This document shows positions 51,185 through 52,738 of a DNA stretch of 64,000 bases, piece after piece; position 1 is the stretch's first letter; every line of letters starts with the position of its first letter. The notes beneath the pieces were generated by a model. It was not told the DNA's origin. It saw only the letters and a program-made list of their open reading frames with translations, and did not search any database. Location of the stretch: assembly GCF_000372725.1 (NCBI RefSeq), contig NW_005201269.1, forward strand, positions 124,001-188,000, in the 5' to 3' direction. The position numbers and the translations under genes are program-made. This DNA is from Emiliania huxleyi CCMP1516 (taxonomy: Eukaryota).

Positions 51185-52738
51185 TCACATTTGGGGTGCG
51201 CCAGGCTGCCAACGACCAGCCACTCGACGCTCTATCGACACACGAATGGTTGGGTACATAGATGCAACTCTTTCGAAGAATCGCTGGCAAGTGCCGCACA
51301 TCTGCGTGAAACTGATCCAACAGTGAAAGTTACCTGAGAGGTCGTGAGAGAGATTTCCATCTTTGCACACTTGGACACGGCGATCGTGAATCACCCAGTG
51401 CATGAAGGCTTGGAGCTCGGCGTGCGACGCATTGTCATCGCAGAGACAAAGCCGCAGATTCTGTTTCGCAAAGCTTTTCACAAGGTTCCTGAGAGTTTCA
51501 CTACTGTTGTACCCGTAATTGAGCCACCATCCAGAATTGAGCCAGACAGATTCACCATCTTTGTTCAAATAGACCGCGATACACTTTGGGCCGTAGGCCC
51601 ATCTGGCGACAGTTGGAGCGATGACCTGTGTCCGCTGAGCAACTTTCGCCACGTATCCAGGAGTCACGGTGAAGGGGGCTTGAATGCAATAGGATCCCTC
51701 TAAGACGGATTCACCTGTGTCAGTGTGGCAGATTTTCATTTCCAGATTGGCCAGCGGAAAGTCAGAAGGTAGGCCCAAGATGTCTTCATATCTGAACCCA
51801 CACGACGTGCTAGTACTGGCGATCGATTTGTGCACGTGATCGGACTGCGTGCCTTTGTCGCTGCATGGCTGAGCCTCGGTTAGCAGATACTCGAGCGCCG
51901 TTTTGCCATAATCGTCTCTCACATGCTGTGCATCGGGAAAAGCGTCGAGCAACACGCTCATGATTACCGCGCGTGCGGACCCTTTGATCGTGTGTGCTGC
52001 CATATGCAGAGGGAGTTGCCGCCGATCTTCTTCGTCGACGATAGCCCAGCACCGGGCCGCGTACGGATATGCTCTGAGCAACAGCATCACCATCTCTGCT
52101 TGCGCACACATCTGTTCGCAGGCGACGTGAAGTGGTAGCGCGCCGAAGTCATCTTCGACCCTCGCTGCTTCAGGACACGCAGCGAGCAACATTTCCATTA
52201 CTTGTATGCTCTTGGGATCGGTCCGAGCAGCGGCATGATGGATGGCCGATCGGGAAATGGCGTCACGCATGCAGGCTGAGTGTACATCTTGCTCGATGAT
52301 GCTGCTGATTACGCGTTGGCTGGCTTGCTGTCTGACTGCGGTGTGCAAGAGTGGCTCGCCTTCTCGATCAAAAGTTGACAGCGTCGACATCCACGTGCTC
52401 AGATTATCACTCATTCGTTGGAAGTCGACAGAGGAAAACGAAAACGAAATGCGGCTGGAGTGGCTTGCCTTCTTCCACGGCGGGCCTGCGAGTGGGTGCC
52501 ACATGGGTCGCGATGTCATGCGCAGCGAGTCAGACAACCGGGTGGTCGTCGGTCTGGCCGTCTCGATTTCTTTGACTCCTGTGACAGATGACCCGCTTTT
52601 TGCATTTGCTTTTGTTCGTTCACTTGAACACCCCCCGGAGTGGGCTGCCGGAGGCCGGAGGGGTGGAGGGGAACCGTGGTTCCCCCCGTAAGTCCACCTT
52701 GCTGCGTACTTATTGTAGACAACACCGCCGGATGGCAC
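51185..52738 (-). CDS. Ankyrin-repeat protein with C-terminal zinc-dependent deaminase domain
   Basis: Ankyrins: PLLHTAV, SAIHHAA, GALPLHVAC, QLPLHMAA, DDYGKTAL. Then KCIAVYL..NSGWW, SHAELQAF (HAE 51416-51424) and FHCWIS..QMCGTCQRFF..YPTIRVSI (51287-51301). Confidence 0.75.
   Translation of the reverse strand: MPSGGVVYNKYAARWTYGGNHGSPPPLRPPAAHSGGCSSERTKANAKSGSSVTGVKEIETARPTTTRLSDSLRMTSRPMWHPLAGPPWKKASHSSRISFSFSSVDFQRMSDNLSTWMSTLSTFDREGEPLLHTAVRQQASQRVISSIIEQDVHSACMRDAISRSAIHHAAARTDPKSIQVMEMLLAACPEAARVEDDFGALPLHVACEQMCAQAEMVMLLLRAYPYAARCWAIVDEEDRRQLPLHMAAHTIKGSARAVIMSVLLDAFPDAQHVRDDYGKTALEYLLTEAQPCSDKGTQSDHVHKSIASTSTSCGFRYEDILGLPSDFPLANLEMKICHTDTGESVLEGSYCIQAPFTVTPGYVAKVAQRTQVIAPTVARWAYGPKCIAVYLNKDGESVWLNSGWWLNYGYNSSETLRNLVKSFAKQNLRLCLCDDNASHAELQAFMHWVIHDRRVQVCKDGNLSHDLSGNFHCWISFTQMCGTCQRFFERVASMYPTIRVSIERRVAGRWQPGAPQM

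What the first reader, a model, noticed from the sequence alone, without database searches (positions are those of the whole stretch)
51185..52738. Ankyrin-repeat nucleic-acid deaminase candidate
Seen: about five ankyrin repeats followed by IAV...SGW, SHAELQ and hhhS..MCGTC..F......P.I.V.I, an intact HxE + CxxC zinc-deaminase signature. The gene is intronless and lies in a TE-rich block. Known: SGW/HAE/CxxC domains fused to ankyrins occur in the DYW/SsdA-like deaminase clade (fungal and toxin versions), and the final strands also resemble AID/APOBEC. Inference: a possible DNA/RNA editing, antiviral or anti-transposon effector in an alga, easily missed as a plain ankyrin protein.
Basis: partly seen in the sequence, partly recalled or inferred. 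Interest (0 to 1): 0.8.

Follow-up and report, generated by a model that had tools for sequence, protein, structure and literature searches.

The report
Ankyrin protein with SsdA/DYW-like deaminase
An intronless gene in a GC-rich marine eukaryote joins ankyrin repeats to a very divergent domain that is predicted to be a zinc cytosine deaminase of the bacterial-toxin SsdA / plant DYW type, a kind of enzyme that edits or mutates DNA or RNA; no activity was tested.

Summary
One open frame (51185-52738, minus strand, 517 codons; first ATG at codon 74) carries Pfam-significant ankyrin repeats. Its C-terminal domain has SGW, SHAE and MCGTC in the order and spacing of a zinc deaminase.

This motif set occurs once in 67,395 residues of open frames in the window, and in 161 of 100,000 shuffles.

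The domain is nearly an orphan:
- Pfam, NCBIfam, PADLOC, PHROGs and PDB sequence searches gave no deaminase hit.
- Only two true relatives turned up among 1.84 billion representative proteins. They keep all three motifs.

Fold evidence is weak, but every line points the same way:
- Two low-confidence AlphaFold models (pLDDT 38 and 40) both put plant DYW domains and the toxin SsdA at ranks 1-5 of 48,161 PDB chains (Z 3.4-4.0).
- The ESM Atlas model of the relative P0007 has only DYW, SsdA or toxin-deaminase neighbours.
- A relaxed profile alignment to SsdA-family toxins lines up all the motifs, but scores poorly (P = 0.002, probability 14%).

Only 22 residues follow helix 3. That fits a beta4-beta5 hairpin and rules out an AID/APOBEC-type helix 4.

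Verdict: a new, very divergent eukaryotic member of the DYW/BaDTF2-like deaminase clade fused to ankyrins. This architecture is already known from ascomycetes. Activity, substrate and expression are untested, and the "TE-rich" claim is not supported.

The parts
51185..52738 (-). Open reading frame of 517 codons plus stop (P0001). The likely CDS runs from the first in-frame ATG at codon 74, i.e. 51185-52519 (444 aa).
52409..52519 (-). N-terminal stretch M74 to about residue 110. It is Ser/Arg/Lys-rich with almost no acidic residues. A possible targeting presequence (inference only, not tested).
   Evidence: sequence; no predictor was run
51869..52366 (-). Ankyrin repeat region, about 4.5 repeats, residues about 125-290.
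   Evidence: Ank_2, Ank_5, Ank_4 and Ank above cut-off; PDB ankyrin proteins
51614..51751 (-). Conserved beta-rich N-terminal subdomain (residues 330-375, NLEMKICHTDTGESVLEGSYCIQAPFTVTP...). It is shared with the relatives P0007, P0002 and P0008. No known family.
   Evidence: alignment; predicted strands, low confidence
51188..51601 (-). Predicted deaminase core (residues 380-517): beta1-beta2 hairpin, inserted helix, helix 2 (HAE), strand 3 (FHCWISF), helix 3 (CGTC), beta4-beta5 hairpin.
51527..51535 (-). SGW motif (S402 G403 W404). It is invariant in all relatives. In SsdA this motif contacts ssDNA.
   Evidence: PMC12494967 passage
51416..51424 (-). HAE motif (H439 predicted zinc ligand, E441 predicted catalytic glutamate).
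51287..51298 (-). CGTC motif (C481 and C484, predicted zinc ligands) at the start of helix 3.
50946..51074 (+). Uninterrupted 129-nt sequence X.Y (X 50946-51005, Y 50994-51074, overlapping by 12 nt).
51119..51178 (+). Second copy of X (98% identical). It abuts the 3' end of the ORF and ends in TAGCTTTGTCCT.
52900..52980 (+). Second copy of Y (99% identical). It lies upstream of the ORF and begins with TAGCTTTGTTCT. Together, X'[1,721 nt holding the ORF]Y' looks like an insertion into an X.Y copy with a 12-nt duplication.
   Evidence: both junctions are covered by contigs of the source run

Best explanation

Inferred mechanism: H439, C481 and C484 hold a zinc ion between the N-termini of helices 2 and 3. 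E441 shuttles the proton for hydrolytic C-to-U deamination. The SGW loop (S402-W404) helps to hold a flipped-out cytosine of a single-stranded nucleic acid, either ssDNA as in SsdA or RNA as in DYW. The ankyrin repeats would direct the enzyme to a protein partner or a compartment.

Shown directly: the ORF, the ankyrin repeats, the motifs and their conservation in relatives. Inferred: the fold, the zinc site, the activity, the substrate and the biological role.
For: 1. Motifs. SGW, then 37 residues, then SHAE, then 42 residues, then a hydrophobic strand plus MCGTC. This is far beyond chance. The same motifs are kept in the only relatives, at 41-46% identity. The one relative with a complete domain (P0007) has FHCWISF..MC.TCQ.FF and YP.I as well.

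2. Structure, relative. The ESM Atlas's own model of P0007 (pLDDT 0.52) has 10 of 10 listed structural neighbours that are deaminases. Eight are DYW or PPR-DYW clusters, one is a bacterial Toxin-deaminase/Deam_C cluster and one is an SsdA_C cluster. TM is 0.36-0.42 by the query and 0.61-0.62 by the two short rows.

3. Structure, window protein. Two AlphaFold models were each aligned to 48,161 PDB chains.
- Model 1, ranks 2-5: DYW1 7w86 (Z 3.9), PPR-DYW 9kfx (Z 3.9), SsdA 9c63 (Z 3.4), DddB 9k3e (Z 3.4).
- Model 2, ranks 1-3: 9kfx (Z 4.0, 101 aligned, rmsd 3.6), 7w86 (Z 3.5), 9c63 (Z 3.4, 84 aligned, rmsd 3.0).

4. Language-model features. The nearest named clusters are toxin deaminases: PF14424, SCP1.201-like, MsddA-like, MafB19, SsdA_C. 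Scores are 0.81 for the window domain and 0.87 for P0007.

5. Sequence against a reference set. I built a set of SsdA-family toxin domains (A4), which hits SsdA 7jtu at 3.6e-22. At relaxed settings hhalign lines up DG, SGW/SGY, G[YF], SHAE.Q and MCxxC..FF over 91-102 columns, with P = 0.002. An HMM of A4 scores the window domain above all but 11 of 2000 shuffles.

6. Topology. Predicted strands and helices follow the order beta1-beta2-(inserted helix)-helix2-helix3-beta4-beta5. [quoted passage not shown]

7. Precedent. Ankyrin fusions of DYW-like deaminases are reported in ascomycetes (PMC3239186).
Against: - No sequence-profile library recognises the domain: Pfam, NCBIfam, PADLOC and PHROGs at E up to 10 or 0.1, and the PDB by phmmer and by profile.
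- hhalign probability is only 5-14%, and at default settings it aligns just 17 columns around CxxC.
- Both AlphaFold models are poor (mean pLDDT 37.8 and 40.4). Strand 3 is not formed in them.
- All Z scores are under 5, a range the tool says can reflect only a common arrangement. An unrelated PerR regulator is rank 1 for model 1.
- Foldseek found nothing, best E 1.4.
- Atlas scores are under 0.9 and TM by the query is under 0.5, which the tool calls leads only. These leads may lean in part on the same HAE/CxxC motifs, so they are not fully independent.
- Two family signatures are not met: HAEK is HAEL/HAEV here, and CxDC is CGTC/CATC.
- The zinc site geometry could not be inspected.
Confidence: 0.7

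Rival explanations
1. It is a DYW-style organellar RNA-editing enzyme. The basic, Ser-rich N-terminus after M74 would be an import presequence, and the deaminase would make C-to-U changes in organelle transcripts, with ankyrins replacing PPR repeats as the targeting or adaptor module.
For: DYW domains are the top structural neighbours. Iyer et al. raise this possibility for the ankyrin-fused ascomycete DYW-like proteins (PMC3239186). The N-terminal stretch has almost no acidic residues.
Against: The C-terminal DYW tripeptide and the second metal cluster (two His plus CxC) are absent, as is the HxEK motif. The exact SGW motif is a hallmark said to separate BaDTF2 DNA deaminases from mRNA-targeting DYW members (PMC11789416). 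Ankyrins bind proteins, not RNA sequences. No targeting predictor was run. My search for DYW, haptophyte and deaminase together found no paper reporting such a protein.
Confidence: 0.12
2. It is a recently inserted or decaying gene copy that is not used. The deaminase-like domain is a relic of a transferred toxin gene with no present function.
For: The ORF lies in a 3.9-kb island of lower G+C, 0.49-0.59 against about 0.65 around it. Its GC3 is 0.59 against 0.62-0.86 in five neighbouring ORFs. It sits between duplicated 60- and 81-nt sequences with an insertion-like 12-nt duplication. Only 6 nt separate the stop codon from the repeat.
Against: A 517-codon frame without a stop is kept in DNA that is only 56% G+C. 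All catalytic motifs are intact. Relatives at 41-46% identity keep the same motifs, which indicates selection on the family. Near-identical pieces with few changes occur in marine metagenome runs.
Confidence: 0.08
3. The C-terminal domain is not a deaminase. It has another fold, and the HAE and CxxC residues serve as a structural metal site or have no role.
For: No profile library or PDB sequence search sees a deaminase. The models are of low confidence. All Z scores are under 5, and Foldseek found nothing.
Against: The motif set, its order and spacing and its secondary-structure context fit the deaminase template and are rare by chance. Three different model sources (two AlphaFold runs and the Atlas model of a relative) all pick the same small clade out of tens of thousands of chains or millions of clusters.
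Confidence: 0.1

Closest known systems
SsdA / BaDTF2 bacterial ssDNA cytosine deaminase toxins (Pfam PF24120 SsdA_C; PDB 7jtu, 9c63)
   Same: Exact SGW motif, SHAE.Q in helix 2, and MCxxCQx[FY]F in helix 3. The DG turn between strands 1 and 2 and a G[YF] a few residues after SGW are also shared. [quoted passage not shown] SsdA is among the top 5 structural matches for both models.
   Different: There is no Pfam hit. CxDC is CGTC, and HAEK is HAEL. The SGW-to-His spacing is 37 residues against 46 in SsdA (PMC12494967). An extra 20 or so residues lie between helix 2 and strand 3. The protein is eukaryotic, intracellular and ankyrin-fused, not the tip of a secreted polymorphic toxin with an immunity gene (compare L061 and L062).
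DYW deaminase domains of plant PPR RNA-editing factors (PF14432; PDB 7w86, 9kfx)
   Same: [quoted passage not shown] These are the top structural neighbours of the window's models and of the relative's Atlas model.
   Different: No DYW tripeptide, no second metal cluster, no PG box, no HxEK, no PPR repeats and no Pfam hit.
Ankyrin-fused DYW-like deaminases of ascomycete fungi (Iyer et al. 2011, PMC3239186)
   Same: The same domain architecture, ankyrin repeats followed by a DYW-like deaminase, in a eukaryote. These are thought to derive from bacterial toxin domains. An ascomycete cluster in which 11% of members carry SsdA_C appears among the feature neighbours at 0.76.
   Different: The fungal versions are described with a large insert between strand 3 and helix 3, whereas here the extra residues lie between helix 2 and strand 3. 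No detectable sequence similarity was found: the search of 1.84 billion representatives returned no fungal protein. The host lineage differs, a marine GC-rich eukaryote that is not among the lineages listed for the clade in that paper.
AID/APOBEC and the novel AID/APOBEC-like (NAD) deaminases reported in Emiliania and Micromonas
   Same: HxE and CxxC zinc deaminase active on nucleic acids. Their role as mutators in defence is a possible functional analogy.
   Different: [quoted passage not shown] They have an HxEE motif, inserts in or near CxxC, and two helices after strand 5 (PMC3239186). Here 22 residues follow helix 3 and no helix 4 is possible. APOBEC3G is only rank 50 with Z 2.0.

Membership tests
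Deaminase superfamily (CDA fold, zinc-dependent) | H/C-x-E in helix 2 and (P)CxxC at the start of helix 3, separated by strand 3 | tested here: met
   SHAELQ (H439, E441), FHCWISF, then MCGTC (C481, C484). Read directly, conserved in P0007, rare by chance.
Deaminase superfamily (CDA fold, zinc-dependent) | Three-layer alpha/beta/alpha fold with strand order 2-1-3-4-5, recognisable by structure comparison | tested here: inconclusive
   Models have pLDDT 37.8 and 40.4. DYW, SsdA and DddB rank 1-5 of 48,161 chains, but at Z 3.4-4.0. Foldseek found nothing. The Atlas model of relative P0007 has 10 of 10 deaminase neighbours, with TM 0.36-0.42 by the query.
Deaminase superfamily (CDA fold, zinc-dependent) | Bound zinc and hydrolytic deamination activity | not testable with these tools
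   Needs metal analysis and enzyme assays.
C-terminal-hairpin division (as against the helix-4 division) | Strands 4 and 5 form an antiparallel hairpin with no helix 4 between them | tested here: met
   Only 22 residues follow helix 3. Both models predict two short strands joined by a turn. Definition from PMC3239186.
BaDTF2 / SsdA family | SGW motif in the loop next to the active site | tested here: met
   S402-G403-W404, invariant in 5 of 5 aligned sequences. Named as a hallmark in PMC12494967 and PMC11789416.
BaDTF2 / SsdA family | HAE motif | tested here: met
   H439-A440-E441.
BaDTF2 / SsdA family | CxDC motif | tested here: not met
   CGTC in the window and CATC in P0007. The Asp is replaced by Thr. 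The hallmark is taken from PMC11789416.
BaDTF2 / SsdA family | Match to Pfam PF24120 SsdA_C or significant sequence similarity to SsdA | tested here: not met
   No Pfam hit at E up to 10 and no PDB hit. The HMM of the SsdA-family set A4 gives 3.7 bits, reached by 11 of 2000 shuffles. hhalign probability is 5-14%.
DYW-like clade (Iyer et al. 2011) | HxEK motif in helix 2 | tested here: not met
   HAEL in the window and HAEV in the relatives. Synapomorphy list from PMC3239186.
DYW-like clade (Iyer et al. 2011) | [quoted passage not shown] | tested here: met
   A predicted helix (ETLRNLVKSFAKQNLRL, with R and K) lies between SGW and SHAE. The prediction is of low confidence.
Classical plant DYW domain (PF14432) | C-terminal DYW tripeptide, second metal cluster (two His plus CxC), PG box, Pfam match | tested here: not met
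   The protein ends ...RWQPGAPQM. No PF14432 hit.
AID/APOBEC-like clade | Helix 4 between strands 4 and 5, extended strand-4/helix-4 loop, two helices after strand 5 | tested here: not met
   22 residues after helix 3 cannot hold these elements. No APOBEC Pfam hit.
Ankyrin repeat proteins | Pfam ankyrin models above the gathering score | tested here: met
   Ank_2 37.3 bits (cut-off 27.3), Ank_5 36.4 (27), Ank_4 24.3 (22.7), Ank 23.9 (21.1).

The most novel reading that the evidence does not exclude
A marine alga carries, on a small insertion-like cassette of foreign composition, a domesticated SsdA-type single-strand DNA cytosine deaminase. Ankyrin repeats aim it at a viral or transposon protein. 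This would be an APOBEC-like mutator defence that arose independently from a bacterial toxin domain, in a lineage known for battles with giant viruses. It belongs to a family so divergent that no current profile detects it.
Probability: 0.15. Interest if true: 0.8.

Novelty: new member of a known kind. Interest (0 to 1): 0.55.

Why it matters
Toxin-derived nucleic-acid deaminases have repeatedly been taken up by eukaryotes as editors and mutators: DYW in plant organelles, AID/APOBEC in animal immunity. SsdA itself is now engineered into compact base editors (abstracts listed).

This gene would add a eukaryotic SsdA/DYW-like family that current annotation files as a plain ankyrin protein. It also comes from a lineage that Iyer et al. 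2011 do not list for the clade.

If the domain is active, it offers:
- a new small deaminase scaffold, with natural variants at the CxDC and HAEK positions;
- a test case for how a eukaryotic cell keeps a potentially mutagenic enzyme in check through ankyrin-mediated targeting.

The finding fits an established paradigm and does not overturn it.

Tried and rejected
**Sequence searches that gave no deaminase call**
- Pfam on the whole protein and on the C-terminal 218 aa at E up to 10. The only weak rows were Glycos_transf_2 at 0.026 and PAS_9 at 0.19, both below cut-off.
- NCBIfam: 0 families.
- PADLOC: Csn2 at 0.037 only.
- PHROGs: 0 families.
- PDB by phmmer: 37 rows at E up to 10, mostly ankyrin-repeat proteins and none a deaminase. 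PDB by profile: PilN at 0.39.

**Homologue searches**
- The word-indexed search found none of 191 and none of 102 candidates at threshold.
- The exhaustive search of 1.84 billion representatives gave 5 rows at E up to 0.001. I accepted 2 (P0002, P0005). I rejected 3 (P0003, P0004, P0006) as repeat-driven, because each matched in 6-8 stretches to an internally repetitive protein.
- The search for related loci with the family alignment confirmed none of 124 (metagenome), 64 (viral) and 18 (prokaryote genome) pattern matches.
- There is no paralogue in the window by tblastn; the best other hit for the C-domain had E 0.93.

**Structure and profile comparison**
- Both AlphaFold jobs gave poor models. 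Foldseek against the PDB gave nothing below E 1.4.
- hhalign at default settings aligned only 17 columns, with probability 5-7%.

**Harvesting reference toxin deaminases**
- PF14424 was found in 0 of 5 and 0 of 401 genomes searched. The tool warned that nothing rang anywhere.
- PF24120 was found in 2 of 401 genomes.
- The housekeeping deaminase loci were fetched but not used.

**Expression and other samples**
- No RNA holder was listed for this stretch.
- Small-share marine metagenome holders were laid and cover only parts of the ORF. No joint showing an empty site was seen.

**Repeats and context**
- A 27-nt piece of repeat Y had 0 exact matches in metagenome contigs.
- Rfam found 0 matches in 44-60 kb. 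The bacterial promoter and terminator scan was not informative for a eukaryote.
- No whole genome is held for this window, so copy number and paralogues elsewhere in the genome are unknown.
- Earlier findings of this scan: nothing on record.

**Considered and rejected**
- AID/APOBEC membership, on topology.
- In-frame retained introns as the cause of the 11- and 9-codon length differences, as too short.
- A classical retrocopy: no poly(A) at the gene's 3' end next to the repeat.
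Full report
**1. What is there**

On the minus strand, 51185..52738 is a single open frame of 517 codons. The frame is open upstream to a stop near 52858. The first in-frame ATG is codon 74, so the likely CDS is 51185-52519, 444 aa. All residue numbers below use the 517-codon numbering.

The window is G+C-rich, about 0.60-0.75. The ORF lies in an island of lower G+C running from about 50700 to 54600, at 0.49-0.59. Its GC3 is 0.59, against 0.62-0.86 in five neighbouring ORFs with Pfam domains.

Those neighbours are ordinary eukaryotic genes with long uninterrupted frames:
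- Ank+MYND
- RINGv+Ank
- WD40
- cyclin
- Myb+CG-1
- UCH
- AMP-binding
- sulfotransferase

Contigs of the source run cover the whole stretch. Marine metagenome runs hold near-identical pieces of it. The host is therefore a marine, GC-rich eukaryote. 'Alga' is plausible but I did not show it.

**2.

Ankyrin models pass Pfam's cut-offs between residues about 127 and 285, and PDB ankyrin proteins match. The quoted motifs are present. I checked three of them codon by codon in the DNA:
- SGW at 51527-51535
- HAE at 51416-51424
- CGTC at 51287-51298

The combination H[AC]E-x20-50-CxxC occurs once in 67,395 residues of open frames of 100 aa or more in the window, and that one is this ORF. It arises in 161 of 100,000 shuffles of the C-terminal 218 aa. 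With the strand and [PM]CxxC context required, it arises in 5 of 100,000.

**3. The domain is nearly an orphan**

No profile library names it, and neither does the PDB by sequence.

An exhaustive HMMER pass over 1.84 billion representatives returned 5 rows at E up to 0.001. Two are true relatives: P0002 at 8.9e-14 and P0005 at 4.6e-07. The other three I rejected as repeat artefacts.

A cluster mate, P0007 (283 aa), has the complete domain. The relatives are 35-46% identical to the window domain, depending on the row and the alignment. They keep:
- the DG turn
- SGW
- GY.SSE
- SHAE.QAFMHW
- and in P0007 also FHCWISF, MC.TCQ.FF and YP.I

They also share a beta-rich stretch before the core, at residues 330-375. 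No ankyrin is seen in the relatives, but they come from contigs of 1-1.9 kb and may be cut.

Pattern-based scans of metagenome, viral and prokaryote contigs confirmed no further relative.

**4. Fold evidence**

Two AlphaFold runs on the shallow alignments gave poor models, with mean pLDDT 37.8 and 40.4. Their secondary structure still follows the deaminase order: two strands forming a hairpin that ends in SGW, an inserted helix, a helix starting at HAE, a helix starting at CGTC, and a terminal two-strand hairpin. Strand 3 (FHCWISF) is not formed.

I aligned each model to 48,161 PDB representatives without a Foldseek prefilter.

| Model | Rank | Chain | Z | Aligned | rmsd |
|---|---|---|---|---|---|
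| 1 | 1 | PerR regulator 5nl9 (unrelated) | 4.1 | 65 | 3.7 |
| 1 | 2 | DYW1 7w86 | 3.9 | 84 | 4.3 |
| 1 | 3 | PPR-DYW 9kfx | 3.9 | 85 | 4.0 |
| 1 | 4 | SsdA 9c63 | 3.4 | 83 | 5.1 |
| 1 | 5 | DddB 9k3e | 3.4 | 81 | 4.0 |
| 2 | 1 | PPR-DYW 9kfx | 4.0 | 101 | 3.6 |
| 2 | 2 | DYW1 7w86 | 3.5 | 80 | 3.9 |
| 2 | 3 | SsdA 9c63 | 3.4 | 84 | 3.0 |

These Z values are low, and the tool warns that values under 8 may be common arrangements. Foldseek found nothing. Against that, the same small clade comes to the top of 48,161 chains twice.

The ESM Atlas holds its own model of P0007 (pLDDT 0.52). All 10 listed structural neighbours are deaminases: 8 DYW or PPR-DYW clusters, one bacterial Toxin-deaminase/Deam_C cluster and one SsdA_C cluster. 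TM is 0.36-0.42 by the query and 0.61-0.62 by the two short rows.

Language-model feature neighbours are again toxin deaminases, at 0.81 for the window domain and 0.87 for P0007. These scores are below the 0.9 level that the tool treats as more than a lead.

**5. Direct comparison with bona fide SsdA-family toxins**

I had no reference sequences, so I looked for Pfam PF24120 (SsdA_C) in bacterial genomes and found it in 2 of 401 searched. Both hits are C-terminal tips of giant HINT-containing polymorphic toxins, each followed by a repeat-protein gene.

With six further proteins they form alignment A4. A4 hits SsdA 7jtu at 3.6e-22 and touches DYW1 7w86 at 0.4.

hhalign of the window family against A4:
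- At default settings it aligns only the CxxC helix, with probability 5-7%.
- With the cores trimmed and a relaxed alignment threshold it gives one colinear alignment of 91-102 columns at 25-26% identity. This pairs DG with DG, SGW with SGY, GY with GF, SHAELQ with SHAEKQ and MCGTCQRFF with MCDDCFQFF. P = 0.002 and probability is 14%.

An HMM of A4 scores the window domain at 3.7 bits, a score that 11 of 2000 shuffles reach or beat. P0007 scores 1.1 bits, reached by 63 of 2000 shuffles.

Sequence support is therefore weak but points the same way as the structural leads.

**6. Placement**

Iyer et al. (PMC3239186; passages read) divide deaminases into two divisions:
- a C-terminal-hairpin division, which includes DYW, BURPS668_1122, SCP1.201, MafB19 and CDA;
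- a helix-4 division, which includes TadA and AID/APOBEC.

Here only 22 residues follow helix 3.

Two papers name the hallmarks of BaDTF2/SsdA. PMC12494967 gives the SGW motif, the zinc ligands His346, Cys367 and Cys370, and Glu348, which was mutated (E348A) in the protein used for crystallisation and DNA-binding assays. PMC11789416 gives HAE, CxDC and SGW.

The window protein measured against these and the DYW signatures:

| Signature | Family | Status here |
|---|---|---|
| SGW | BaDTF2 | met |
| HAE | BaDTF2 | met |
| CxDC | BaDTF2 | not met (CGTC) |
| HxEK | DYW-like clade | not met (HAEL) |
| DYW tail, second metal cluster | classical plant DYW | not met |

I therefore place it beside the DYW/BaDTF2 clade as a new divergent family. 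I do not file it as a member of SsdA_C or of DYW proper.

The ankyrin-plus-DYW-like architecture is already described for ascomycetes (PMC3239186). The lineages listed there for the clade do not include haptophytes or other algae. My searches found no paper describing such a protein in them. These cover open-access full texts only.

**7. How it most likely works**

These steps are inferred:
- Zinc is held by H439, C481 and C484.
- E441 acts as proton shuttle.
- The SGW loop shapes single-stranded nucleic acid so that a cytosine flips into the pocket, as in SsdA.
- The product is uracil.
- The ankyrin repeats would bind a protein partner that localises or restrains the enzyme.

The substrate (ssDNA or RNA) is open. 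The exact SGW motif leans towards the SsdA-like DNA mode, while the DYW structural neighbours and a basic N-terminus leave organellar RNA editing possible. Nothing here tests activity or expression.

**8. The locus**

A 129-nt sequence X.Y lies intact at 50946-51074. Forty-four nt further on, a second X (51119-51178) is followed by 1,721 nt that hold the ORF, and then by a second Y (52900-52980). TAGCTTTGT(C/T)CT is present at both junctions. Contigs of the source run cover both junctions.

This looks like an insertion with a 12-nt target duplication, or else a deletion between 12-nt repeats in a tandem copy. There is no poly(A), no clear terminal inverted repeat and no transposase.

None of the 31 neighbouring ORFs scanned has a TE domain. 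These were 28 of the 79 ORFs of 200 aa or more, plus 3 shorter ones. 'TE-rich' is therefore not supported. Together with the lower G+C and GC3, though, the signature suggests a comparatively recent arrival.

**9. Verdict**

The main interpretation is supported by several lines that agree but are each weak.

| Claim | Confidence |
|---|---|
| Deaminase domain of the hairpin division | about 0.8 |
| The stated mechanism as a whole | about 0.7 |

It is a new and very divergent member of a known kind. Interest is moderate: it extends toxin-derived deaminases to a new eukaryotic lineage and offers a new small deaminase scaffold.

Noticed in passing
window 50946-51178 and 52900-52980: An intact 129-nt sequence X.Y lies next to a copy split by the 1,721-nt ORF-bearing segment, with TAGCTTTGT(C/T)CT at both junctions. 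This is an insertion-like (12-nt target duplication) or deletion-like signature. In one marine metagenome run the X'-ORF junction is kept, but the sequence beyond X' differs (loose end at 51119).
   Followed up: partly
window 52887-52920: An 11-nt inverted repeat, GGACCCCAGAA ... TTCTGGGGTCC with a 10-nt loop, sits exactly at the junction between the ORF-bearing segment and repeat Y'. Seen by eye.
   Followed up: no
window 50700-54600: An island of lower G+C (0.49-0.59 against about 0.65 around it) holds the ORF. Other open frames in it (52790-53467 +, 53798-54181 +, and 54592-55317 - at its upper edge) have no Pfam or PHROGs match.
   Followed up: partly
window 50388-50456: Tandem array of an 11-nt unit, CGGGTTAGTCT (4.7 copies, 97% matches), just upstream of the low-GC island. 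The unit contains a telomere-like GGGTTAG core.
   Followed up: no
window 52682-52929: The source-run contig over the 5' flank of the ORF has lower word depth (7.6) than the ORF body (12.5) and the downstream flank (15.7). This may be an allelic difference.
   Followed up: no
window 16723-18252 (+) and 19743-22322 (+): Two further ankyrin-repeat ORFs lie in the same window, with other effector-type domains: MYND zinc finger and RING-variant. Ankyrin fusions appear to be common in this genome region.
   Followed up: no
window 5640-5739: A run of 100 N, which is an assembly gap.
   Followed up: no
L061 1-1809 (+) and 1895-2671 (+); L062 1357-3165 (-) and 487-1296 (-): The reference loci from two bacterial genomes are giant polymorphic toxins (open frames of 3171 and 3302 aa). 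Each has a HINT-like stretch and then an SsdA-family deaminase tip (SGY, SHAEKQ, MCDDC). Each is followed by a conserved 258-269-aa Ala/Gly-rich repeat protein that is likely the immunity gene.
   Followed up: partly
P0005 (metagenome protein, 178 aa): This relative loses similarity right after SHAEVQAFMH and runs on in unrelated low-complexity sequence. It is probably a frameshifted or mis-assembled copy, so I left it out of the second alignment.
   Followed up: partly
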